Shown in pieces: positions 46,365 through 58,264 of a DNA stretch of 64,000 bases. A program made the translations under genes and the position numbers. Origin of the DNA: Abditibacterium sp. (GTDB taxonomy: Bacteria; Armatimonadota; Abditibacteriia; Abditibacteriales; Abditibacteriaceae); assembly GCA_965199495.1 (NCBI GenBank), contig CBDASK010000003.1, forward strand, positions 2,272,001 to 2,336,000, in the 5' to 3' direction. The first letter of the stretch is position 1, and each line of letters begins with the position of its first letter. Below the pieces are notes generated by a model that saw only the letters and a program-made list of their open reading frames with translations, did no database searches and was not told the origin of the DNA.

Positions 46365-47516
46365 TTACTTCGTTTTGCTCGAAGTTTTGCTCAGACGATA
46401 CATTTTGCCGCCATCCACCGTAAACAAAAGCGAGCCATCGGCTTCTTCGGCGCAGTCAACGGGGCGCGCCAAAACGTTTTGTCCATCTAACGTCGAAACC
46501 ATCTTCATCGCGCCCATCGGTTTGCCGGTCTCCGAATCGAACATCACGCGATCAATGCAATAGCCCTGTTTGACGCTCGAATTCCACGAGCCATGACACG
46601 CGATAAACGCGTCGCCTTTGGCGCCGATCTTATCGGTCGTGGCGAAGGTGAAGCCGTTGGTCGCCCAGTGCGGCCCGACCGGCCACGCTGGCAGGATCGT
46701 TTTTGCGGCCAGTTCGAGAATATCGGGCCGATCCTTGTATTCCAAACGCGGCGTGCCATCGCTCACGATAAACGGATGCCCGTAAAACCCGCCTTCGACG
46801 TAATGATTGAATTCGTCGTCGGGCTTGCGATTGGTCACCGGCTGCGCCTCATTAGTTTCGCCCAGCGATTTGCCATACCAATCGCTGCCGTGATCGCAGC
46901 CATAAACTTCGGTTGTGCCAGGACGAAAACGCAGCTTTTCGGTATTGCGAATGCCCGAACTCCACAGCGTGCGCGTTTTGCCGTCCAGCGAATACTTCCA
47001 GATTTTCTGGCGGTCGGTCGCGGTCTCATCGCTGGCATTCTGGCTCTCGCCAATCGAGGTGTAAAACCCGTCGTTGCCCACCAAAATCGAGCGCCACCAA
47101 TGGCCGCCGCCCTGGGGCAAATCGTCCGTAACCTTGATTTCTTCGTCGGCCTTGCCATCGCCGTTGGTGTCGCGTCCCTTCCAAATCACGCCCGACTGGG
47201 TAAACCACAGCCAGCCGTCCTTGTAATCCATGCCGTGAACCGTCTTTTTACCCGACGTAAAATCGGCGAGTTTTTTGTAAGTGCCATCGCTCTGCTTTTT
47301 CAGCGTCGCGATGCTGCCCGTATTGGGCTGCGAAAGATAAAGCACGCCCGGCGCACCCGGTTCGATAAACCGCGTCTCGCCCAAATCTTGGCCAACAAGC
47401 GTCACGGAATAACCATCGCGCACGGTGAAATTGGGCACGCCCGGCCCGGTCACTCCGGCGGCGTGGCTGGTCGTTGCATAGAATAAAAGGCCGCTAAGGG
47501 CCACAAGTGATTTCAT
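46365..47516 (-). CDS. Secreted glucose/sorbosone dehydrogenase-like beta-propeller
   Basis: Signal peptide MKSLVALSG; GGHWWRSI, SGIRN, FYGHPF, HGSWNS, RPVD. Confidence 0.82.
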   Translation of the reverse strand: MKSLVALSGLLFYATTSHAAGVTGPGVPNFTVRDGYSVTLVGQDLGETRFIEPGAPGVLYLSQPNTGSIATLKKQSDGTYKKLADFTSGKKTVHGMDYKDGWLWFTQSGVIWKGRDTNGDGKADEEIKVTDDLPQGGGHWWRSILVGNDGFYTSIGESQNASDETATDRQKIWKYSLDGKTRTLWSSGIRNTEKLRFRPGTTEVYGCDHGSDWYGKSLGETNEAQPVTNRKPDDEFNHYVEGGFYGHPFIVSDGTPRLEYKDRPDILELAAKTILPAWPVGPHWATNGFTFATTDKIGAKGDAFIACHGSWNSSVKQGYCIDRVMFDSETGKPMGAMKMVSTLDGQNVLARPVDCAEEADGSLLFTVDGGKMYRLSKTSSKTK

Positions 47517-47708
47517 GGATAAATTAAGAGAGTTGAAGACGCGTTGCGGTTGCCCTTTATACAAATTATTCTGAGAAGTCCGGTTAATATCGCTTGCTTC
47601 TTTGTTCTTAAAAACCGCTTGAGCCAGAGCGTCCCTCTCTTCTTGCAATGGCTCATTTTTCGCGCGAGTAGCTCGTGGCGCTAATCTCCTATTGTAAAAT
47701 AAAACTGC

Positions 47709-49481
47709 ATGGCAACCAAATGGCGCATCGGCGAAAAAATCGAGAATCGTTGGGAAATCTGCGACATCAAGCACGGCGGCATGGATGTCGTTTATATCGT
47801 TTACGATCACGAATCGCGCGAGCCGTTCGCCATCAAAACTTTTGGCGGTAAGGTCTATCCGCGCACTGTCGAGCGATTCACCATTGAGGCGCTTTTGTGG
47901 GTCAATCTCGATGTTCATCCCAACGTGGCGCAAGCGCGATTCGTCAAAAATATCGAGGGCCGACCGTGCCTGTTTCTGGAATACGTCAGTGGCGGACATC
48001 TGGGGCGTTGGATTCGCACGCCGCAGTTGAGACAGAATTTGCGTCAAATGTTTGGTTTTGCCCTTGGCATCTGCGACGGCATGACGCACGCTTTTTCCAA
48101 AGGGCTGCAAGCGCACCGCGACATCAAGCCGGAAAATTGCCTGATTAGCGCCGATAACACGCTCAAAATCACCGATTTCGGCATGGCACGCATCGCGGAT
48201 GTCGCCGAAGAAGAGGGCATTCGGGGCGGCACTGTCGAGTTCATGGCGCCCGAACAGTGGGGCAACTTCGAGTTGGCCGACGAGCGGGCGGACATCTATT
48301 CATTCGGCGCGACGCTTTATGCGATGCTGACGGGCGAGTATCCTTTCGGCGATTCGTCCGAAGTGGATACCCGCGAAATGGAGCGGCGTCACAAAGAAGA
48401 CTCGCCCGCGCCGCTTCCTGCCCAGTTCCGCGACTTGAGTGAATTCGTCTCCAAATGTCTGGCTAAAACTCCCGCCGAACGCTTCGCCACGTTCGCCGAA
48501 GCGCGCACGGAGTTGGCGTGGCTGTGTCAGAGCATGACCGGCGAAACCGCGCCGCAACCCGTGACTGGCGCGGCGTTTGACGCGGGACAATGGAGCGAAA
48601 AAGGCGGCAGTTTGCGCGCGTTGGGACGCTATGAAGCCGCGCTCGAATGCTACGACCGCGCGCTCGAACTCGATGGCGATTTGGCCGATGTCTGGTCGAA
48701 CAAAGGCGAAGCATTGTGGAGTTTGGGGCGCATCGAGCAGGCGCTGCAATGTTTAGATCGCGCGCTCGAACTCAACCCGGAGGGCGGCGAAATTTGGTCG
48801 AATCGCGCCGCGATTGTGACGCAATGCGGACAGGCGCAAGCCGCTCTCGAATGTTGCGCGCGCGCCCTCGAACTCAACCCCAACTTAGCGATGGCCTGGA
48901 ATAATCAAGGCGTCGCGCTCATGGCGCTGGGCCAAGTCGAAGCCTCGCTCCCATGCTATGACCGCGCGCTGGAACTCGATCCGTATCTGGAAAACGCGTG
49001 GTCGAACAAAGGCTCGGCGCTGGGAGCCTTGGAGCGCGCCGAAGAAGAGTTGCAGCACTACAATCGCGCGCTCGAACTTAACTGGCGTTTAGATCAGACG
49101 TGGTGCAACAAGGGCAGCGTGCTGGCGTCGCGTGGCGAGTGGAACGAAGCCATCAAATGTTATGACCGCGCGCTCAAACTCAACCCGCAACACGCCGATG
49201 CGTGGTTCAACAAAGGCGTCGCCCTCCAAAGTTCGGGCCGCGTGCAAAAGTCTGTGGCGTGTTATGCGCGCGCGCTGAATTTAAATCCCGGCGATACCGA
49301 AGCCTGCAATCGCAAAGGTTTGGCGTTGCTTGAGTTGGGACGCACCCGTAAGGCCGTTGAGGCGTTCGAGTGCGCCCTGCAAATTGACCCCGACGATGCG
49401 GAAGCCGCCAATCATCGAGCCAACGCGTTGGAAAAAATGGGACACACCCGAAAAGCGCGCGCCGCACGAGAGCAAGCGTAA
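47709..49481 (+). CDS. Hanks-type Ser/Thr kinase with C-terminal TPR array
   Basis: GGMDVVY, AIK, HRDIKPEN, DFG, APE; repeated W.NKG..L...CYDRALELNP. Confidence 0.92.
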   Translation: MATKWRIGEKIENRWEICDIKHGGMDVVYIVYDHESREPFAIKTFGGKVYPRTVERFTIEALLWVNLDVHPNVAQARFVKNIEGRPCLFLEYVSGGHLGRWIRTPQLRQNLRQMFGFALGICDGMTHAFSKGLQAHRDIKPENCLISADNTLKITDFGMARIADVAEEEGIRGGTVEFMAPEQWGNFELADERADIYSFGATLYAMLTGEYPFGDSSEVDTREMERRHKEDSPAPLPAQFRDLSEFVSKCLAKTPAERFATFAEARTELAWLCQSMTGETAPQPVTGAAFDAGQWSEKGGSLRALGRYEAALECYDRALELDGDLADVWSNKGEALWSLGRIEQALQCLDRALELNPEGGEIWSNRAAIVTQCGQAQAALECCARALELNPNLAMAWNNQGVALMALGQVEASLPCYDRALELDPYLENAWSNKGSALGALERAEEELQHYNRALELNWRLDQTWCNKGSVLASRGEWNEAIKCYDRALKLNPQHADAWFNKGVALQSSGRVQKSVACYARALNLNPGDTEACNRKGLALLELGRTRKAVEAFECALQIDPDDAEAANHRANALEKMGHTRKARAAREQA

Positions 49482-49495
49482 TCGGCGCGCGCGGA

Positions 49496-50779
49496 TTAAA
49501 ACGTGGAAATGGCGGAAAGCTGAAAATACGCGTCGGTGCTGTCGTCGGTCAGTCCGGCGTCGAGCGAAGCCGTGATAGATGTTTGATTATTGGTCTGGTA
49601 ACTCAGCGCTTGTCTGAGATAGGCGGTCGTCGAGCCGGAAGTTCCAATGAAAGGACTATTGGTTTTGCCATAGCTGAGTCCACTGCGAGAACTGAACTGC
49701 GGCCCCAGCGCATAATAAAATCCGACTTCGCCGCCGTAAGAGTTGGGAAGATTCGCTCTGTCGCCGTCCACACGGCGCGCGATGCTGGTGCCGTAATCCG
49801 CGCTGACATAGAATTGCAGCGGAACCATCATTTTGCGAACCGAAAGATGAACGTAGGGTTGGTAGAAGCCACTGCCCGTGCGCAATTGATTATCGTTGAG
49901 ATGGAACGCCTTGCCCGTTGGCAACACGACGCCCGCGCCCGCCGAAAAACGAAGCCCGCCCGCAAGGCTGGGAAAACGATGCGAGATATAAAAATCCATA
50001 TCGCCGATGCCCTGCCCCTTGCGCCGCAACGTGCCCTCGGCGGACGTGGCGCGGGCTGTTTGATAAACGTAGGGCACGCCCAAACTGACATCGGTTCGAT
50101 TGGAAAGAGGATATTCTCCAGTCAGCGTCAGGCGGCTGATAAAACGGTTGTCTATCGTGAGCGGCCCAGTCGGTGTATCAACCAAACTTTGCCGGTCGAA
50201 TCCCACGGAAGTGTCCGCGTAAATCGTGATTTCGCGGCGACTATGACTCGAAGTGGTCTTGGGCGAACCAGAGATAATCGGGCCAGATGCGGGCGATGAC
50301 GAAGGCGCCGATGCCACAGGCGCCGCCGCAGGAGCTTCGGGCGCAGGAGCCACCGCCGAAGCAGCCACCGCCGCAGGAGATGCGACTTGCGCTGACGATG
50401 GCTGGGGAATGGGAACCGCTTGTCCCGCACCAGATTTTCGAATCTTCGGGATGGGAGGAAGCGTGAAGCTCTTCTCAACGCCCGCTTGGGTGTTCGGCAA
50501 TGCGGCGTTCGGAGCAGTATTTGGGGGCGACTGAACCGCAGGTAAATTTTGAATCTTCGGAAATTTCGGAATCGGCACGCGCGAGCGAACCGCGGGAATC
50601 GGCGGCAGATTTCTCCCCGATGTATCGAATGTAAGAGAGCGAACCGCAGCAATGGGCGGCAGATTTTCGGACTTTGGGATGGGCGGAATCGGAGGCAGAG
50701 GCTGAGCGGACGCAATGTCGCAACAAATAAAGGGCACTCCTAAACATAAAGAAGCACGAATCAGAGCGTTGAAAATCAT
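49496..50779 (-). CDS. FapF/COG4313-like outer-membrane beta-barrel with Pro-rich N-terminus
   Basis: Signal peptide; GIGDMDF, VVLPTGK, LRTGSG; amphipathic strands; C-terminal Phe. Confidence 0.7.
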   Translation of the reverse strand: MIFNALIRASLCLGVPFICCDIASAQPLPPIPPIPKSENLPPIAAVRSLTFDTSGRNLPPIPAVRSRVPIPKFPKIQNLPAVQSPPNTAPNAALPNTQAGVEKSFTLPPIPKIRKSGAGQAVPIPQPSSAQVASPAAVAASAVAPAPEAPAAAPVASAPSSSPASGPIISGSPKTTSSHSRREITIYADTSVGFDRQSLVDTPTGPLTIDNRFISRLTLTGEYPLSNRTDVSLGVPYVYQTARATSAEGTLRRKGQGIGDMDFYISHRFPSLAGGLRFSAGAGVVLPTGKAFHLNDNQLRTGSGFYQPYVHLSVRKMMVPLQFYVSADYGTSIARRVDGDRANLPNSYGGEVGFYYALGPQFSSRSGLSYGKTNSPFIGTSGSTTAYLRQALSYQTNNQTSITASLDAGLTDDSTDAYFQLSAISTF

Positions 50780-50791
50780 AATGTGCGAGGC

Positions 50792-51445
50792 TTAGTTGCG
50801 GGGGCTGAAGCGCGACCAACGCAGCGAATCGAGGTTTTCCATTTGACGGTCGAGTTCGCGGATGATTTGCGCCTGATGAGTCGAGTTCGTGTGCAGCGTG
50901 GGCGTGGCAACCATAAAAACGAAGCCTTTGCTTTCTTCGTTCGCGGATTTTTGGATTTCGGCGCTACTTTGTTTTGGCTCGGTTACCAGCCACCGCTTGA
51001 GAAAAACCTTCGCGGGCAACACGAGATTGCCCGACGCTGGATCGGCCAGATAAACAAGATCGTTCTTGACGGCCAACACCAATACGAAATGCGGTTCGGG
51101 CAAAAGAATCCGCACCAGAAGCGGCGCCGGATACGATTCCAACTGTTTTTGAAGAACCGGAAAACTCATCAGAAAACTGTCGGCCAAACAGTTTTTCGCT
51201 TTGGCCGCTTCTTCCAATCCCAACAACGTCGTGCCGGAAGTTTCCTTCAGCCCCGCCAATCGCGAAATTTCGCCCTCGGTCGCGTCAACGTCCAAGTAGA
51301 AACGCAATAAAGTCGCCAGCGTCGCGGGGCCGCAATCGGACGAACCGTTTTGCACCAGCAAAAATCGCGTGTTGGCCTGAGCCTTCACGCCGATTCCGGC
51401 GACGGCGAGAACGGCGATGAAAAATGCGAGAAATAATCGTCTCAT
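50792..51445 (-). CDS. Stand-alone exported C39 cysteine peptidase (FapD-like)
   Basis: Signal peptide; Q..SDCGPATLATLL, PHFVLV, LADPASG (Cys-His-Asp). Confidence 0.85.
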   Translation of the reverse strand: MRRLFLAFFIAVLAVAGIGVKAQANTRFLLVQNGSSDCGPATLATLLRFYLDVDATEGEISRLAGLKETSGTTLLGLEEAAKAKNCLADSFLMSFPVLQKQLESYPAPLLVRILLPEPHFVLVLAVKNDLVYLADPASGNLVLPAKVFLKRWLVTEPKQSSAEIQKSANEESKGFVFMVATPTLHTNSTHQAQIIRELDRQMENLDSLRWSRFSPRN

Positions 51446-51570
51446 CTTCGAGAGTTTGACTCCAATGGGCTTTGTGCGAAAGCCAGTTATTTTGTCAGGC
51501 TTGAGTTCAAGTGGTTCACGATGCAGCAACTTTTGGCCTCAGTGTAAATTTTCGCGATAAAAAGTCACTG

Positions 51571-51617
51571 AAACAACGACACCGGAAGCTCTTAAAGAAC
51601 TTCCGGTGTCGCTGTTT
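51571..51617 (-). terminator. Hairpin/terminator between the peptide gene and the C39 gene
   Basis: aaacaacgacaccggaag ... cttccggtgtcgctgttt. Confidence 0.7.
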
Positions 51618-51656
51618 TCGTGTTTTCACTCAGGAAATATTCCTGTTGAACTGCTC

Positions 51657-51932
51657 TTAGCTACAACGAGGAGGAGTGGGGCGGCAGGGAGGAGGAGCGG
51701 GAGTGCAAGACTTGCTGCTTTTCTTGCTTTTTGTGCTTTTCGCGCATTTATTGCTTTTGGACGACTTTTTGTCTTTGCAACCCAAGCCCTGAACGCCAGC
51801 TTTCTGTTGGCTGGTGAGCGCGTCGGCGCCCGACACGACCGGCAAACCTGCGGCATTGGCAGGAGCCGCACACAAAGCACCGCTCCACGCGACGCCTAAG
51901 ACCAGAAGACCCGACACAGTTGATTTTCTCAT
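51657..51932 (-). CDS. 91-aa secreted Lys/Ser/Cys/Pro-rich precursor peptide
   Basis: ATG 51932 with AGGA upstream; Sec signal ending ANA; LTSQQKAGVQG; cationic core. Confidence 0.75.
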   Translation of the reverse strand: MRKSTVSGLLVLGVAWSGALCAAPANAAGLPVVSGADALTSQQKAGVQGLGCKDKKSSKSNKCAKSTKSKKSSKSCTPAPPPCRPTPPRCS

Positions 51933-52113
51933 GATGACACTTCCTATTGGTGAATTTTCTTTCCCGTTGTCCGCTTTTGAAGCGAACGAAGAAAGAATGT
52001 TAAACGAAGTCCATTTCCAAGACCGATACAAAATTCTAACTCCAAGAAGCGTTGATTTTGTGTTCTTCGGCTTTGAACTGACACAAGAAATTATGCCAGT
52101 AAACGTTCGGAGG

Positions 52114-52137
52114 AAATAGGGAGTAAGCTCCCTATTT
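52114..52137 (-). terminator. Terminator overlapping the regulator stop codon
   Basis: aaatagggag-taag-ctccctattt. Confidence 0.6.
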
Positions 52138-52890
52138 TCGTGCGCGCGGGCGCTTAATATCTGACAAATTTTGGGAGGATAATAGCAGGGAATCGGAAGG
52201 GGAACGCTCAAACAAGCCGTGATAGTGAGCAAAAATAACTAACTCGACCCGTCCCGAAATTTGTAATTTTTCAAATATCGCGGTCAGGCGGTGGCGAACC
52301 GTGGCTTCGCTAATGAACAATTGAGCGGCAATAGCTTGATTTTTCATCGCCTGACAGACCAGAGAAATGACATCGTGTTCCCCTTTGGTGAGCGTGCTAA
52401 TGCGCCAAGTGAGATTATCTTTGTTGGACGATTGCGGGCGTTTGTTCTCGTGCAACAGGCTCGTCACCATCGTGCGTTCGATCCAGATTTCGCCAGCATG
52501 AACACATCGCAGAGCCTTGAAGAACAGCTCGACACTTTGGTTTTGCTGCACAATTCCCATCACGCCATGATCAATGGCTTGCTTGAGCAATTCGTAATTA
52601 CGAGAAGAAGTCAGCAACACAACACGACATTCGGTGTCGGCCTTAAATACCGCGAGCAACAGACTTTGTAAGGTTTCATCAAAGTCGTCCATGTCAAACA
52701 GAACGATGTCGGGGCGAAGTTGAGACACGAGGCGCACCGTCTCGTCGCCGTGGCTGCTGTTGCCTACCACTTCAAAATCTGGTTGGGTATGGAGCAAGCA
52801 GCACAACGCGGCCCGCGAAATTGCATCGCTGGTGTTTCCAGAAACGAAGATGCGCAATGGAATCGTGGAGTTGAGTGCGGATTCAAGCAT
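52132..52890 (-). CDS. NarL/LuxR-family response regulator with atypical receiver
   Basis: PDIVLFD, VVLLTS; LTKGEHDVI..NQAIAAQLFISEATVRHRLTAIFEKL. Confidence 0.88.
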   Translation of the reverse strand: MLESALNSTIPLRIFVSGNTSDAISRAALCCLLHTQPDFEVVGNSSHGDETVRLVSQLRPDIVLFDMDDFDETLQSLLLAVFKADTECRVVLLTSSRNYELLKQAIDHGVMGIVQQNQSVELFFKALRCVHAGEIWIERTMVTSLLHENKRPQSSNKDNLTWRISTLTKGEHDVISLVCQAMKNQAIAAQLFISEATVRHRLTAIFEKLQISGRVELVIFAHYHGLFERSPSDSLLLSSQNLSDIKRPRARK

Positions 52891-53173
52891 GGGAGAGGTC
52901 AAATAATACGCCTTAAATCACACTGATTTTGCAGCAATTATCGTGGTTTCCGGTTTCCCTCTCCCCAGAAATTCGGTTGTTATTGGCTGCATATAGAAAG
53001 TCGTTGGAGTGAAATGGCCTTCGCCAATTTCAAGCGCACGAAATTTATTTGATAGCAGTATATTAGCCTTTTTTTGTAATCTGCGTTGCCCCGACAGGCT
53101 AATCCCTAATAATTCTCTTTTCTTTCCTACTCTGCTTGAGCGTATGGGGGCAGAAAATTCATCGCGCCCTTTT

Positions 53174-53274
53174 CTACATTCCGCGCCCACCCAGCATGCG
53201 ACCCATTTTGCCCATGCCGCGCGGCATTTTCATCTTGCCGCTCTGCATCGCTTGCAGTTGCCGCATCATCTTTT
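53174..53274 (-). pseudogene. ffh: Duplicated 3' end (last 32 codons plus stop) of ffh
   Basis: Encodes KMMRQLQAMQSGKMKMPRGMGKMGRMLGGRGM*, identical to the ffh C-terminus at 56697-56797. Confidence 0.95.
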
Positions 53275-53649
53275 TATATTATTCATGTGTTGAGCAGTTG
53301 TAGGAAAAGATGTCGAGCGCGTCGCACTCAAAGAAGCCCATAGAAAGGCGGGCACGCTAAATAACGCAGGGAAATTAAGTAACACCAGTTCGTGTTGCAT
53401 CAACGAGCAAACGAAAGAAGCCGACGCAATCATAATAAGCAACGAAAACGATAAGAGTGAGCGTGAACTGCGCGCGCGATGAGTGACTAACCAGACTAAT
53501 CCAAATGTTGTGAAAAAGAACGTAAGCGCGGGATAAAGGCGATGTTCAATTCCAATTTGGTAAGATTGGCTGGCCCATATCGCCGGAATAAAAATGCCAA
53601 GCGCACCGAAAATTAGAGGAAGAGCCAAAAGAGGGAGACGAGATTTCAT
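53266..53649 (-). CDS. Small multi-TM hypothetical protein; stop codon lies inside the ffh duplicate
   Basis: About 4 hydrophobic segments. Confidence 0.6.
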   Translation of the reverse strand: MKSRLPLLALPLIFGALGIFIPAIWASQSYQIGIEHRLYPALTFFFTTFGLVWLVTHRARSSRSLLSFSLLIMIASASFVCSLMQHELVLLNFPALFSVPAFLWASLSATRSTSFPTTAQHMNNIKR

Positions 53650-53655
53650 GGCGAA

Positions 53656-54162
53656 TCAAGAGTTTTCGAGGGCGACGATTTTGTTAGCGCGCACATGAAT
53701 GGCATAAGGTAATTCCATATTGCGCGGCGCTAAGGGAACGTAACTGCTACGGTTATAGCTGAAAATTTGATCGAGATTCAAAAGGGTTTTATCTAACACA
53801 AATGGCTTGTCGCGCGATATCACGTTAATCAAAGCCACCGGCTGATGGGAGCGTTGCGCGGCTTTTATCATGTTTCCCACCGCGACATCTTGGCAACCGC
53901 AAGATTCGCGGAAAATTAGCACGCTTTCGTTAGAGCTTGCGGGCGAAAATCCAACCCGTCCGTCCGTTCCAACGATTGATAATTGAGGCAACGTCGAACC
54001 AACTTCCAAACGCCGGTTGCCCAAGGCGTTAATTAGCGCGTTGAATGAGAGTGTACTGGGACGTTCTGGTGCGCCATTGATAGTCAGGACGCAGACTTGA
54101 AGAACCAACGCACCGAGCAGAATTTGACTCAGTGCATCGCTGTTACGGAGAATTTTAAACAC
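53656..54162 (-). CDS. Membrane-anchored, possibly thioredoxin-fold protein
   Basis: LEVGSTLPQLSIVGTDG and VLIFRESCGC resemble the AhpC/TSA N-terminus; CxC rather than CxxC. Confidence 0.5.
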   Translation of the reverse strand: MFKILRNSDALSQILLGALVLQVCVLTINGAPERPSTLSFNALINALGNRRLEVGSTLPQLSIVGTDGRVGFSPASSNESVLIFRESCGCQDVAVGNMIKAAQRSHQPVALINVISRDKPFVLDKTLLNLDQIFSYNRSSYVPLAPRNMELPYAIHVRANKIVALENS

Positions 54163-55120
54163 GTTTTTTCGTCCTCCATGCCAAAAGCAACGCCGCCAGT
54201 GTTAAAGGCCCAAAAGTGAGCGCCAAATTGATATTGCGTTGTCTGTTTTCTGCCGCGTGTTCCTGATCATCCAGAACGCCCAACTTTTTGGCTTCTTTAT
54301 CGGTAATGGCAAAAACATCGGCTTTGGTCATCGGCACAGAAGAAGTTTTCCTGATTATTAAAGGCGCGCCAAAGCGAGTATCGGCTAAAATTGCGGGGCG
54401 AGCGATAAAAAATTGCAACGGCTGCGCAGGTTTCTTGCTGAATGTAGCAGCCGAAAATTCAAAGCGCAAAGGCATTAAACTCGTGCCTACGCTCGGATAC
54501 TTAACGGTTGCTGTTTGCGGCATCAAACCGCCGTTTTGCGCGCCCTGAGTTTCGATTGTGACAAAAGGCTTGCCCTCTTTCTGCAATCGCTCGATGCGGC
54601 GCGCCAGAAACTTTTGTCGTGGATCAAGCAACGCTCGGATCGGCTTGCCGTTGGGTGTTTGGCCTTGCAATTCCACCAAAGGCGAACCAGCCACGGCGCT
54701 GACGTGGGGCGATTTCAGCATCGAAAGTCCGCGTCCTTTAAAAAAACAGGCGCCGGGCAGCAGCAACAGCATTCGATTATTGGGGGTATCGCTGAGCAAA
54801 CTCAAGCGCGAAATCGTCACCGAATTGCCGACGGAAGAGAACTCGTCCTGCCCATCGAAAAGCGTTTCTGTAACTGGGAGTTGCGAACCTTTGTCCTTCA
54901 GTTGCACCGTGCGAAAACGGTATTTATCGCCCGTTGAAGTGGAGCTTATCTGGCGGACGGGTTTGCCATTTTCCAAAACGCGCGCCTGAAAGCTGCTGGT
55001 GGCAAACGCCGCGTCCGCTTCTCGAATAGCTTTTAACGTGGCGCCTTCGTCGAGCGCATAACAAGCGTGACTCGCCAGCAACGCGGTCATCAAACCGCCA
55101 AAAGTCTTGATAAATTGCAT
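54155..55120 (-). CDS. Exported hypothetical protein with C-terminal TM anchor
   Basis: GGAGG RBS, signal peptide, C-terminal hydrophobic helix followed by RTKKR. Confidence 0.65.
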   Translation of the reverse strand: MQFIKTFGGLMTALLASHACYALDEGATLKAIREADAAFATSSFQARVLENGKPVRQISSTSTGDKYRFRTVQLKDKGSQLPVTETLFDGQDEFSSVGNSVTISRLSLLSDTPNNRMLLLLPGACFFKGRGLSMLKSPHVSAVAGSPLVELQGQTPNGKPIRALLDPRQKFLARRIERLQKEGKPFVTIETQGAQNGGLMPQTATVKYPSVGTSLMPLRFEFSAATFSKKPAQPLQFFIARPAILADTRFGAPLIIRKTSSVPMTKADVFAITDKEAKKLGVLDDQEHAAENRQRNINLALTFGPLTLAALLLAWRTKKRV

Positions 55121-55130
55121 TAAGCCTCCG

Positions 55131-55808
55131 TTAATTGCAAAAACTGTAAGCCGCATTGGGATCATAAACCTCAACCGGAAGATTGGGTTGGTCGCAGATG
55201 TCGGAATTGGTGTAGGCGATGAGTTTGACGTGACCATCAACGAACAAATAATTCGCCCGGCCTAAGTGTGTGGTATGAGGCGTGCCCGAATAGCCAAAAC
55301 TGTAAACGGAGGAGTTCGTGCTTTCTAAGTCCGAAGAATCTCTCAACATTACCATATTAGCGGGACGTTTGACCTGAGTTGAGGGTAAGCCGCTCAGATA
55401 AATATTCATCTGGTAATCGGTGTAATGAACGCTCCAAAGCTGCTTCAAACCGTCCGCCGGGGTTACGTCTTCTATCACTCCATCTGTAGGGCCTTTTGAA
55501 GGACAACGGTAGAGTTGCAGATTACCCACATAAGGAAAAATGCGGTAAGCCCAACCGGGGCCATCTGCTGAATATCCGGCGGTTGGCAGTCCAGTCGTCA
55601 ACCAAAAAGGATATCTACCGTTATCATCGGCGTATTGTTGCATCGCCAAACCGATTTGGTGCAAGTTGCTTTTGCACTGAGTAATACGCCCCTGTTCGCG
55701 CGCGCGCGCGAAAACTGGCAACAGAATCGCCGATAGAATAGCGATAATGGCGAGAACCACCAAAATTTCCATCAAAGTAAAGCCTTTGACGCGTCGTGAG
55801 TGGGCCAT
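55131..55808 (-). CDS. Prepilin-type N-terminal cleavage / H-X9-DG (DUF1559-like) protein
   Basis: [55 protein letters not shown]. Confidence 0.9.
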
Positions 55809-56014
55809 CAGAATTCTCCTTTAACTCTATCTCGCGGTCGGATAATTAAATCCGACCGCAAGACGTGAAGTGTATAGTGTGCTGTAACTGAATAGCATAG
55901 TAGGGTTCTGTTTTCCGTCAGAGTCGTGCCTTAAACGCGTATGTCGCGCTTAAAGATGCGTCTCCGACAAGTCCACGCGGCCTTATCGAACTATTCAGTT
56001 GCAACATCGAGTTA

Positions 56015-56398
56015 TCAACAATCGGTGAAGCTCGCATTTGTCGTCGCTTCATTAGTAAACGTTTGGGCAACCCAGTCCCCACTACAGATAGAGCCGTTAA
56101 ATGTCGTGATTACGACACTTACAGTAAAGGGCGACATAGTGCAACGTTGATTTGTGTAGAGAAACTTGGACTCGCGACATTGGCGAATAGCCGAGGGGCT
56201 GTAGTAACTGCGAGTTGATGTGGTTCCTTTGTTGATACAGGAATCGTCACCATAGGTAACGGTATCGTAAGTCTGGTTGCACTCGGCTGAAGCCTGCACG
56301 TAGTTGGCGCACCCGAAGGTGGCCAGAGCAATGGCAGCGACGAGGCGGGCTGCCGATCCGCGTTGGACCAAAAAGGTCGGTTTTTGCATTTTCGTCAC
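56015..56398 (-). CDS. Small secreted protein with 6 Cys in the mature part
   Basis: AGGAG RBS, GTG start, signal ending VQA, terminal Cys. Confidence 0.7.
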   Translation of the reverse strand: MTKMQKPTFLVQRGSAARLVAAIALATFGCANYVQASAECNQTYDTVTYGDDSCINKGTTSTRSYYSPSAIRQCRESKFLYTNQRCTMSPFTVSVVITTFNGSICSGDWVAQTFTNEATTNASFTDC

Positions 56399-56696
56399 AA
56401 TTTTTCTCCTTGTGACACAAGGCGTGCTGACACGTTTTGATTTAGAAGAACGCGTTTAACCAATTTTGAGTCTGGCTTTGAATTGTCAGGAATACCCGCA
56501 TTTAAGCTCAACTCTTGACGATTGTGGCTCTTCCATTTATTATTATACCCATTTCATTGAAGATTTAAACATAAGTAGAGGAAAATTTTCAAAAATTTTG
56601 GCAAATTATTTCAAGGTGAGAAATAGACGTTGACGAAGCAAATGTAAGCCAAAAAGGGGCGCAAAGCTAAAACTTCGTCCCCCTTTCTTATTTCTC

Positions 56697-58058
56697 TCAC
56701 ATTCCGCGTCCGCCCAACATCCGCCCCATTTTGCCCATGCCGCGTGGCATCTTCATTTTGCCGCTTTGCATCGCTTGCAGTTGCCGCATCATCTTTTGCA
56801 TATCGCGGAACTGATTTAATAGCCGATTAATCTCCTGCACGCTCGTGCCCGATCCCGCCGCGATGCGCTTTTTGCGGCTGGCGTTGATTACGTCCGGTTG
56901 GCGGCGTTCGCGCGGCGTCATGGACAGAATAATCGCTTCGACGCGTTTCATCATTTTGTCGTCAATGCCAGCTTGGGCGGCTTTGGGCAGTTTGTTCATG
57001 CCGGGAATCATTTCCAGCATTTTGTCCATCGGCCCCATTTTTTTCATCTCCTTCATCTGGAGCAGAAAATCCTCGAAATCGAAGCTGCCCTTTTTCATGC
57101 GCGCTTCCATCTCTTCCATGCTCGCCATCGTGACCTGCTTTTCGACGTTCTCGATCAAACTCAACACGTCGCCCATGCCCAAGATGCGGCCCGCCATGCG
57201 GTCGGGATGAAACAGTTCGATGGCATCCAATTTCTCACCGGTGCCAATATATTTTACTGGCACGCCCGTCACGCTGCGCACGCTCAAAATCGCGCCGCCG
57301 CGCGCGTCGCCGTCCATTTTGGTCAAAACAACGCCCGTCAAAGGCAACGCCTCGTTGAAGGCGGCAGCAGCAGCCACGGCGTCTTGGCCGGTCATCGCAT
57401 CGAGGGCCAAAAGCGTTTCATCGGGCGTGACGGCTTCGGCGATGGCTTTGGCCTCGCTCATCATATTCTCGTCAACGTGCAGACGGCCCGCCGTGTCGAT
57501 AATTACGACATCATAGGCTTTATCGCGCGCCAATGCCACGCCGCGCTGCGCGATGTGAACCGGATTGATCTCGCCCTCTTCGTAAACCGGCACGCCGACT
57601 TGTTCGCCGACGATTTGCAACTGTTTAATCGCCTGAGGGCGATAAATATCGCACGCCACCAGAAGCGGCCTTTTGCCTTCGCGCTTGAGCAAAGCCGCGA
57701 GTTTGGCGGCGGTCGTGGTTTTGCCCGTTCCCTGCAAACCGGCGAGCATAATCACGGTCGGGCCTTTGGAACTCCACTGCAAACGATGGGTTTGGCCGCC
57801 CAGAAGTTCCTGCATCTCGTCGCGCACGACGGCGATCACCATTTGGTCGGGCGTCAGGCTTTTCAAAACGTCTTCGCCGACGGCTTTCACGCGCACGCGA
57901 GCGATGAACTCTTTAACGATTTTGAAGTTGACATCGGCTTCCAAGAGCGCCAATCGCACTTCGCGGAGAGCGGCGTCAACGTCGGCTTCGGTGAGCTTGC
58001 CTTTGCCGCGCAGTTTGGCGAGCGTGCCAGTGATTTTTTGAGAAAGAGACGAAAGCAT
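56697..58058 (-). CDS. ffh: Signal recognition particle protein
   Basis: GLQGTGKTT, DTAGR, TKMDGDARGG, Met-rich M domain, RIAAGSG. Confidence 0.97.
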   Translation of the reverse strand: MLSSLSQKITGTLAKLRGKGKLTEADVDAALREVRLALLEADVNFKIVKEFIARVRVKAVGEDVLKSLTPDQMVIAVVRDEMQELLGGQTHRLQWSSKGPTVIMLAGLQGTGKTTTAAKLAALLKREGKRPLLVACDIYRPQAIKQLQIVGEQVGVPVYEEGEINPVHIAQRGVALARDKAYDVVIIDTAGRLHVDENMMSEAKAIAEAVTPDETLLALDAMTGQDAVAAAAAFNEALPLTGVVLTKMDGDARGGAILSVRSVTGVPVKYIGTGEKLDAIELFHPDRMAGRILGMGDVLSLIENVEKQVTMASMEEMEARMKKGSFDFEDFLLQMKEMKKMGPMDKMLEMIPGMNKLPKAAQAGIDDKMMKRVEAIILSMTPRERRQPDVINASRKKRIAAGSGTSVQEINRLLNQFRDMQKMMRQLQAMQSGKMKMPRGMGKMGRMLGGRGM

Positions 58059-58109: not shown

Positions 58110-58264
58110 AAGCCACAGAGTTCACAGAGAACGCGCAGAGGAACACAAAAAACGGCGAAGAAAATAGAACGCGAAAGAACAGTGGAAAATTAGTGTTCTT
58201 TTGTTTTGATTTTCTTCGCCGTTTTTTGTGTTCCTCTGCGCGTTCTCTGTGAACTCTGTGGCTT
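58110..58264. repeat. CACAGAG-unit perfect 56-bp inverted repeat
   Basis: Arms 58110-58165 and 58209-58264. Confidence 0.9.

What the first reader, a model, noticed from the sequence alone, without database searches (positions are those of the whole stretch)
53174..56797. Integrase-free cassette inserted at the 3' end of ffh, leaving a synonymously diverged second gene end
Seen: 53174-53274 and 56697-56797 encode the same 32 C-terminal Ffh residues. By manual alignment they differ at 9 codons, all synonymous, plus the stop (TAG vs TGA). The junction-proximal 31 bp (53244-53274 = 56767-56797) are identical. Purely synonymous divergence implies both ends evolved under selection in functional ffh genes, so they are two alleles rather than a decaying local duplicate. 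The last cargo ORF takes its TGA from inside the duplicate. No recombinase, transposase or phage gene lies between them. Inference: DNA from a relative (ffh end plus cargo) recombined in at the 31-bp block and displaced the resident end, either through a trans-acting integrase using ffh as attB or through homology-assisted integration after transformation.
Basis: partly seen in the sequence, partly recalled or inferred. Interest (0 to 1): 0.8.

Follow-up and report, generated by a model that had tools for sequence, protein, structure and literature searches.

The report
Gene cassette displaced the ffh end
Five foreign genes sit between the working end of the essential gene ffh and a pushed-aside second version of that end, one of about a dozen such enzyme-free insertions in this bacterium, most likely made by ordinary recombination with DNA from relatives, a route known in outline but rarely traced this clearly.

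Summary
In detail: the last 32 ffh codons occur twice, 3,523 bp apart, differ at 9 synonymous sites plus the stop, and enclose five genes without a recombinase. The host's closest kin are labelled Abditibacterium. It is not a two-strain chimera by depth, and an unrelated sample holds the same cargo-to-ffh-end junction at about 88% identity. New here: (1) the genome has about 13 such displaced 3' ends and 3 displaced 5' starts at different core genes, far from any integrase and with no shared junction motif; (2) the working ffh carries a ~440-bp recombined tract, four times longer than the duplicate; (3) at another gene one cargo-to-end junction recurs in two genomes with swapped flanks. Best reading: homologous recombination of linear DNA from a relative, with the gene as long arm and the spare end as short arm. 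The 31-bp identity does not mark an att site, and the predicted empty site (ffh then NarL) was not found: relatives have ffh then a dehydrogenase gene. It works like 'insertion with long target duplication', known for restriction genes. This scan noted the same pattern before in other genomes, once at ffh.

The parts
56697..58058 (-). ffh (SRP54), intact, 453 aa, single copy
   Evidence: Pfam SRP54, SRP_SPB, SRP54_N over cut-off; 97% and 95% aa to G011 and G004
56697..57135 (-). Recombined tract in the 3' third of ffh (about 440 bp): 4.6% from G011 against 10.0% in the 5' part, distances to G004 unchanged
   Evidence: permutation 1 of 1000; four control genes p 0.13-0.44
56697..56797 (-). Working (proximal) copy of the last 101 bp of ffh, TGA stop; inferred incoming allele
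56651..56686 (-). Hairpin plus T run after the working stop, terminator-like; resembles the hairpin after ffh in G004
   Evidence: fold; alignment score 36 against shuffle 95th percentile 18
56542..56569 (-). Sigma-70-like consensus ahead of the cargo (weak evidence)
   Evidence: 10 of 12 matches; 10 sites found against 4.6 +/- 1.8 in shuffles
56015..56398 (-). Cargo 1: 127-aa ORF with a signal-like N-terminus and several Cys; no family
   Evidence: no paralogue in the genome
55131..55808 (-). Cargo 2: prepilin-type N-terminal / DUF1559 / H-X9-DG protein, 225 aa
   Evidence: PF07963, PF07596; TIGR02532, TIGR04294 over cut-off
54155..55120 (-). Cargo 3: 321-aa exported protein with C-terminal membrane anchor; nearest named look-alikes are TP_0789/LolA-like (lead only)
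   Evidence: Atlas 0.96 to unnamed Planctomycetota clusters, 0.83 to PF17131 clusters
53656..54162 (-). Cargo 4: 168-aa membrane-anchored ORF; no family
   Evidence: 38% to a G009 gene in the same gene order
53266..53649 (-). Cargo 5: 127-aa membrane protein whose stop lies in the duplicate; an 85% identical homologue has the same length and also ends in Arg
53174..53274 (-). Displaced (distal) copy of the last 101 bp of ffh, TAG stop, not translated as ffh; inferred resident allele
   Evidence: junction also on an X1 contig
47690..52973 (.). Second mobile block behind the displaced end: NarL-type regulator, 191-aa ORF, C39 peptidase, beta-barrel-like protein, TPR kinase
   Evidence: Pfam; 79-85% identical block at another gene in G011; not covered in X1
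46365..47521 (-). Glucose/sorbosone dehydrogenase-family gene: the conserved downstream neighbour of ffh in relatives
   Evidence: PF07995 just under cut-off; within about 70-360 bp of ffh in G011 and G007, within about 350-450 bp of the ffh stop by first match in G006, further off in G001, G008, G004

Best explanation
An integrase-free insertion made by the host's own homologous recombination. SHOWN: two allelic ffh ends enclose a five-gene, low-GC3 cargo; the working ffh has a ~440-bp 3' tract of different ancestry; the cargo-to-ffh(-101) junction also exists in a lineage whose cargo is 12-17% diverged, yet this genome's distal copy has no amino-acid change; about 13 other core genes show the same scar. 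INFERRED: a linear DNA piece from a relative, arranged ffh - terminator - cargo - spare ffh end, was taken up (comEC and dprA are present). One crossover fell well inside ffh (near window 57,135) and replaced its 3' third; the second fell at the start of the spare end, which paired with the recipient's own last 101 bp. The gene stays intact with the donor's end, and the recipient's end is left behind the cargo. The spare end thus serves as a portable second homology arm, so the cassette can enter any relative whatever follows ffh there. How the junction first arose is not shown; an illegitimate join inside the homologous anchor, or end-joining of a degraded fragment followed by one crossover, would make it once.
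For: Synonymous-only divergence. Mosaic ffh with a breakpoint 340 bp upstream of the duplicate, which a site-specific crossover inside the duplicate would not produce (1 of 1000 permutations; 0 of 4 control genes significant). Same junction in a diverged lineage: X1 contig of 1,137 bp runs from cargo 46 bp into the duplicate, about 88% identical, with a 3-base deletion in its spare end; homologue P0021 ends at the same residue. Genome scan of 3,391 ORFs: 15 raw same-strand orphan copies of 3' segments downstream, against 0 upstream and 0 for mid-gene segments downstream. No recombinase within 32 kb of any of 16 islets, no shared junction motif in 10. LOG-family gene: the same toxin-antitoxin-like cargo-to-end junction in G000 and G011 with reciprocal flanks; cargo region 80% identical, but the four ends differ at only 4-8 of 85 bases. 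Where a relative gives a flank, the distal copy carries the resident one: LOG 76 vs 11.5, ilvC 51.5 vs 31.5 (G004), typA 52 vs 30 (G011); topA by eye; and a full/empty pair at C3:912.6 kb. comEC and dprA found. Literature: duplication of 109-950 bp of a gene end by RecA-type single crossover without integrase (PMC3240628 passages); integrase-free hotspots recombining at core genes (PMC5635113 passages).
Against: No donor and no exact empty allele for ffh are in hand. The tract could be a separate exchange, and three sequences cannot give its direction (G011 may be the recipient); the test was chosen after seeing a window table. At ffh the hairpin after the working copy, not the distal one, matches G004 (36 vs 17), and for typA G004 favours neither (62 vs 58); ilvD and metH flanks say nothing. 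A ~31-100-bp arm with 9% mismatch is short for RecA (general knowledge). G011 is a fragmented assembly with two dehydrogenase alleles (92.8% alike). A 760-kb sample of G004 (567 ORFs) gave 0 credible orphans where about 2 were expected, and 0 of 70 and 0 of 51 other ffh loci carry a displaced end. Competence genes do not prove competence. DDE and HUH transposases were not searched genome-wide.
Confidence: 0.55

Rival explanations
1. Single-crossover (Campbell-type) entry of a small circle made of the ffh end, terminator and cargo, by RecA, without an integrase; the circle arises by looping out between the two repeats in a donor.
For: Gives the same layout and a fixed junction; seen in E. coli with 109-950-bp duplications (PMC3240628); Furuta et al. 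propose such a cycle for repeat-flanked restriction genes (section 18); the swapped order at LOG can be read as a permuted circle.
Against: Does not explain the tract reaching 340 bp upstream of the duplicate unless that is a separate event; no circle is shown (contigs cannot tell).
Confidence: 0.2
2. Remnant of an integrative element, or a non-autonomous cassette moved by a site-specific recombinase acting in trans, with attB in the ffh end (as e14 in icd, leaving icdC).
For: Same geometry as icd/icdC (PMC13626634 passages); fixed junction across lineages; the genome has 3 tyrosine and 7 serine recombinase matches.
Against: The tyrosine ones are an integron integrase and two Xer-like proteins; all lie 1.1 Mb or more from ffh; 16 islets at 16 genes, 75-145-bp duplicates, no common motif; junctions differ between genomes at ilvD (-75 in G000, about -183 in G006); no integrase trace in any cargo ORF scanned.
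Confidence: 0.12
3. Same recombination, opposite direction: ffh, its terminator and the five-gene cargo were resident, and the distal end came in with the NarL block, crossing over at an older spare end and again in the dehydrogenase gene.
For: Working end is closer to G011 (3 vs 6 of 89) and its hairpin matches G004; the NarL block is mobile; X1's lineage has the cargo without that block.
Against: The tract in the working gene points to it as the recombined part; the distal copy keeps the TAG stop of both relatives and 10 bases of G004's flank; at other loci the distal copy is the resident type.
Confidence: 0.11
4. Assembly chimera of two strains.
For: X2's contigs break at the 31-bp block (ends at 53,273 and 56,796), so they do not bridge it; X2 may be the source sample.
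Against: Main contigs have 0 differences and even depth 44-50 on both flanks and in the cargo; an unrelated study holds the junction; the pattern repeats at many genes with decayed copies.
Confidence: 0.02

Closest known systems
Insertion with long target duplication (Furuta, Abe, Kobayashi 2010, PMC2853133; abstract, passages, sections 15 and 18 read; first report cited there as ref. 37, not seen)
   Same: Insert under 20 kb, direct repeats over 30 bp that are unique in the genome, no other mobile element, repeats often spanning a start or stop so the target gene survives, imperfect left/right identity, mostly competent species.
   Different: Defined for restriction-modification cargo and explained by DNA breakage or a repeat-based cycle; here no R-M gene, about 16 sites in one genome, and allele-level evidence (synonymous-only divergence, upstream tract, reused junction) that the repeats are two genomes' alleles rather than a copy of one target.
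Homology-facilitated illegitimate recombination (as summarised in PMC3240628) and its proposed use in Vibrio T6SS / Rhs C-terminal displacement (PMC5361080); passages read
   Same: One long homologous anchor, no integrase, old 3' parts pushed downstream.
   Different: Classical HFIR deletes about as much as it inserts and joins at 3-10-bp microhomology; here nothing of ffh is lost and 101 bp are doubled. Displacement arrays concern toxin loci, not housekeeping gene ends.
Prophage e14 in E. coli icd with the icdC pseudogene (PMC13626634, passages read)
   Same: Working gene end plus a displaced, mostly synonymous C-terminal copy around foreign DNA.
   Different: e14 is a 15-kb prophage excised on SOS induction; this cassette is 3.4 kb, has no phage or recombinase gene, and has a tract beyond the repeat.
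[quoted passage not shown] 2017, PMC5635113, passages read)
   Same: Variable content between ffh and a conserved neighbour; housekeeping recombination only.
   Different: That model uses two different flanking genes and leaves no duplicate; here the second arm is a copy of the first gene's own end, so insertion adds rather than replaces.

Membership tests
Insertion with long target duplication (Furuta 2010) | Direct repeat longer than 30 bp, unique in the genome | tested here: met
   101 bp, two copies only
Insertion with long target duplication (Furuta 2010) | Insert shorter than 20 kb with no other mobile element | tested here: met
   3.4 kb; no mobility family in five ORFs
Insertion with long target duplication (Furuta 2010) | Insert holds restriction and modification genes | tested here: not met
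   No R-M family hit; works like it, is not a member as defined
Insertion with long target duplication (Furuta 2010) | A genome with the empty site, alike on both sides | tested here: inconclusive
   No relative has ffh then NarL; relatives lack both blocks. Full/empty pairs exist at topA and at C3:912.6 kb
Integrative element / prophage at a gene 3' end (e14-icd type) | Site-specific recombinase inside or beside the element | tested here: not met
   None in cargo; nearest PF00589/PF00239 match 1.1 Mb away
Integrative element / prophage at a gene 3' end (e14-icd type) | Target gene restored, displaced copy at the far end | tested here: met
Integrative element / prophage at a gene 3' end (e14-icd type) | Exchange confined to an att core inside the repeat | tested here: not met
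   Tract starts about 340 bp upstream of the repeat, if it belongs to the same event; 31-bp block not distinctive
Integrative element / prophage at a gene 3' end (e14-icd type) | Precise excision as a circle | not testable with these tools
   Only contigs available; they break at the 31-bp block
Homology-facilitated illegitimate recombination | Homologous anchor on one side | tested here: met
   ~440-bp tract; direction not known
Homology-facilitated illegitimate recombination | Deletion of recipient DNA of similar size, 3-10-bp microhomology at the other join | tested here: not met
   101 bp doubled, no ffh loss; may still describe the first formation of the junction
Homology-facilitated illegitimate recombination | RecA dependence, natural competence | not testable with these tools
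   comEC and dprA present; function untested
Integron cassette | attC-type inverted repeats at cassette ends, near attI/intI | tested here: inconclusive
   An integron integrase lies about 1.9 Mb away; the repeat scan lists no long inverted repeat at the cargo ends; no attC model was run
tRNA/ncRNA-targeted island | tRNA, tmRNA or ffs at the border | tested here: not met
   Only tRNA in the window is at 13.3 kb; no Rfam hit in 45-60 kb

The most novel reading that the evidence does not exclude
Displaced gene ends are working parts, not just scars: once a cargo is joined to a spare copy of a core gene's end, that copy is a portable second homology arm, renewed with the recipient's fresh allele at each transfer. 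This gives a general, enzyme-free cassette system that uses the ends of many housekeeping genes as landing sites, adds instead of replaces, and spreads toxin-antitoxin and surface genes between species about 10% apart.
Probability: 0.35. Interest if true: 0.75.

Novelty: new variant of a known kind. Interest (0 to 1): 0.5.

Why it matters
Many gene-acquisition hotspots lack integrases, and the standard explanation (crossovers in two flanking core genes) needs both neighbours to be conserved. A spare gene end would remove that need and explain how small cassettes pile up behind housekeeping genes in lineages with shuffled gene order. This genome gives about 16 natural cases of different ages, and the model makes a simple bench prediction. 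The layout itself is known from restriction genes and prophages, so the single ffh locus is not a discovery; the added value is the allele-level trace of how it was made.

Tried and rejected
A decayed extension of the duplicate upstream of 53,274 (three codons looked like ffh): shuffle p 0.81-0.95, rejected. The 31-bp block as att core: not distinctive. The idea that distal copies are more decayed in their 5' half was seen by eye at typA, ilvD and atpG but not tested; at ilvC both amino-acid differences are shared with relatives, so they are allelic, not decay. Metagenome scans: cargo 3 found nothing; the ffh tail found only distant bacteria, 51 loci with 1.5 kb or more downstream, 1 raw hit that is a tandem repeat. 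Genome-collection scan with P0021 found nothing; 0 of 70 ffh loci with 1.5 kb or more downstream have a displaced end (80 fetched). The four-gene module in G009 (35-48% aa) and a similar one in G228 have no gene-end duplicate in 16-18 kb, so this cargo type is not tied to ffh. G004 sample: 3 raw hits, all short or on wrong-strand ORFs, none credible. Dropped from the 15 raw hits: an arsenate-reductase-like paralogue (label recalled), the end of a large serine recombinase gene, two 38-bp matches; one 49-bp case kept as weak. X1's lack of cover at 47,920-52,275 is a hole in contigs and proves nothing alone. Literature searches without a matching report; PMC5812530 and PMC3410848 passages gave nothing relevant. 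Same-genome look-up of earlier findings gave one unrelated note.
Full report
OBSERVATION. ffh (56,697-58,058, minus strand, 453 aa; Pfam SRP54 domains) has its last 101 bp repeated at 53,174-53,274. The copies encode the same 32 residues, differ at 9 codons, all synonymously, and end in TGA and TAG; the first 31 bp are identical; no other strong match exists in the 4.81-Mb genome. Only 19-23% of point changes in these codons are silent, so neutral decay of a local copy is excluded (P about 1e-6 for 9 of 9; about 1e-4 for the 6 changes private to the distal copy). Five ORFs lie between; one is a prepilin-type DUF1559 protein (46 such matches in the genome), the rest have no family, and none is a mobility gene. 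Their GC3 lies at the 0.6th-10th percentile of the genome against the 85th for ffh. The best ffh matches among named genomes are labelled Abditibacterium.

IS IT REAL. In run X2 (98% of words; possibly the source sample, so not independent) the main contigs match without a difference at depth 44-50 on both flanks and in the cargo, but they break at the 31-bp block and do not bridge it. In X1, another study, one 1,137-bp contig covers 53,229-53,743 (59 differences) and 53,827-54,366, running from the last cargo gene 46 bp into the duplicate, with three bases missing at 53,262; other X1 contigs cover more cargo. A homologue of that last gene, 85% identical, has the same length and last residue, and lies on a contig of the same length as the 83% identical homologue of cargo 3. 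So the junction is shared with a lineage whose cargo is 12-17% diverged, while this genome's distal copy is still perfect in protein terms. The junction is old and the distal allele was working until recently.

RELATIVES AT ffh. Of 41 genomes searched with the protein, 40 had matches and only G000 showed a separate tail match; 0 of 70 further ffh loci have a displaced end. The conserved neighbour is a glucose/sorbosone dehydrogenase-family gene (G011, G007, G006 close behind ffh; G001, G008, G004 with other DNA between). No relative has NarL after ffh. The NarL-C39-barrel-kinase block lies in G011 at another gene, where G000 has an empty site, and there it is followed by a decayed ~35-bp copy of that gene's end that continues into G000's flank (alignment by eye). 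The ffh-dehydrogenase interval thus holds two stacked cassettes.

WHICH END IS WHICH. Over 89 bases the working end differs from G011 at 3 and G004 at 6, the distal end at 6 and 7. The distal copy keeps the TAG of both relatives and 10 bases of G004's flank, but the hairpin after the working copy is the better match to G004 (36 vs 17). The working gene is a mosaic: G000-G011 divergence is 10.0% over the first 924 bp and 4.6% over the last 438, while both stay 10-12% from G004; permutation of site patterns reached this in 1 of 1000 trials, and four control genes gave p 0.13-0.44 (test chosen after the window table; direction not resolvable). The 31-bp identity sits in a 35-bp run invariant in all three genomes, with five longer runs in ffh.

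GENOME-WIDE. For 3,391 ORFs of 150 aa or more on the main contig, 200-bp segments with at most two other hits were tested for orphan copies 150 bp-20 kb away. Same strand: 3' segment downstream 15, upstream 0; middle segment downstream 0, upstream 3; 5' segment upstream 6, downstream 2. On inspection 10 of the 15 are credible, 1 weak, 4 dropped; three more came (metH, M42 peptidase, and typA, a name recalled from its C-terminus). That gives 13 credible 3' cases (ilvC, ilvD, metH, atpG, topA, typA, LOG-family, M42, FHA kinase, sugar transferase, Uma2, a membrane protein, ffh) with duplicates of about 75-145 bp of coding sequence and 0.5-6.7 kb of cargo, and 3 credible 5' cases (pckG, carB, a heavy-metal ATPase). 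Cargo ORFs scanned include HicA, PIN, GNAT, HNH, a flavin monooxygenase, DyP and DUF1559; none is a recombinase (a chosen subset of ORFs). Decay ranges from none (ffh) to heavy (typA 11 amino-acid changes, atpG frameshifts). The genome has 3 tyrosine recombinase matches (an integron integrase, two Xer-like) and 7 serine ones; none is within 32 kb of the 16 islets, and 10 junctions share no motif by eye. comEC and dprA are present.

RELATIVES AT OTHER GENES. Six 3' loci and carB were compared. G011 lacks the cargo at ilvC and topA; at topA its flank continues like G000's distal copy. G006 has its own ilvD orphan (about 190 bp, another junction) and its own carB 5' orphan (85 bp, 98%). G011 and G000 share a decayed typA orphan behind different cargo. 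At the LOG-family gene both carry the same cargo-to-end junction; G000 reads gene-flank b-cargo-end-flank a, G011 reads gene-flank a-gene X-cargo-end-flank b; the cargo region is 80% identical but the four ends differ at 4-8 of 85 bases (G011 is fragmented). Against generality: 0 credible cases in 760 kb of G004, about 2 expected; G004 and G011 have other cargo without a visible orphan at several of these genes.

MECHANISM. The simplest account is two homologous crossovers with a linear donor arranged gene - cargo - spare end: the long arm replaces part of the gene, the spare end pairs with the recipient's own end, which is left behind the cargo (0.55). A RecA-driven circle gives the same layout but not the tract (0.2). 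A lost or trans-acting integrase would need many specificities and leave no trace (0.12). The reverse direction at ffh is possible (0.11). The first making of the junction is not explained by my data.

KNOWN KINDS. The layout matches 'insertion with long target duplication' except for restriction-modification cargo (PMC2853133: abstract, passages, sections 15 and 18; supplements not opened). PMC3240628 (passages) reports 109-950-bp gene-end duplications by single crossover of re-circularised DNA, and describes HFIR as deleting DNA. PMC5361080 (passages) proposes anchor-led displacement for T6SS and Rhs loci. PMC5635113 (passages) finds most hotspots lack integrases. PMC13626634 (passages) describes icd/icdC. 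Searches found no paper on ffh as such a site or on genome-wide displaced housekeeping ends; the library lacks most subscription papers. Earlier notes of this scan describe the same pattern in other genomes, one at ffh and one with about eighteen genes; they are unchecked and are not counted as support, but one gave me the Furuta paper.

VERDICT. Real; a new variant of a known kind; interest 0.5. The locus alone is ordinary for this class; the tract, the reused junctions and the number of sites make the portable-arm model testable.

Noticed in passing
window 47,690-52,973; L053:62-1,900 and L054:35-4,100 (G011); G000:C3:912,635-912,668: The NarL-C39 peptidase-barrel-kinase block is a second mobile cassette; in G011 it sits behind another gene with a decayed ~35-bp displaced end, and G000 has the empty site there.
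   Followed up: partly
window 51,657-52,232 and 50,792-51,529: A small ORF with a Lys/Ser/Cys-rich tail precedes a stand-alone C39 peptidase gene and a barrel-like gene; looks like an export or processing module for a small protein.
   Followed up: no
window 58,110-58,264: Perfect 56-bp inverted repeat just upstream of ffh; related copies occur at many places in G000 and G004.
   Followed up: no
G000:C3:4,211,969-4,212,883 (L226:5,970-6,884): An integron integrase over the curated cut-off; no cassette array was looked for.
   Followed up: no
L140:2,505-4,352 (G000:C3 about 373.0-374.9 kb): The cargo behind the typA-like gene is a 615-aa protein matching the thiol-activated cytolysin family in an environmental bacterium.
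   Followed up: no
L152:1,853-3,013 (G000:C3 about 4,630 kb): Cargo behind a Uma2 gene is a flavin monooxygenase that looks TetX-like (label recalled; Pfam gives only FAD-binding).
   Followed up: no
G000:C3:1,120,000-1,255,000: Three large serine recombinase genes with interleaved 150-bp to 900-bp repeats, apparently tandem islands of the conventional kind.
   Followed up: no
G000:C3:2,766,400-2,772,200: Long array with ~65-bp period, probably a CRISPR array.
   Followed up: no
L040:1-416 and L055:15,677-16,092 (G011): Two alleles of the dehydrogenase gene, 92.8% alike, at contig ends: strain mixture or a recombined duplicate right behind ffh.
   Followed up: no
L169:1,408-1,484 and 2,142-2,224 (G006): Duplicate of a ribosome-binding site and gene start (83 bp, 78%) behind ilvC, a further 5'-type case.
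   Followed up: no
L186:6,457-9,388 (G009): The DUF1559 four-gene module recurs in the same order at 35-48% identity away from ffh, next to a second DUF1559 start.
   Followed up: partly
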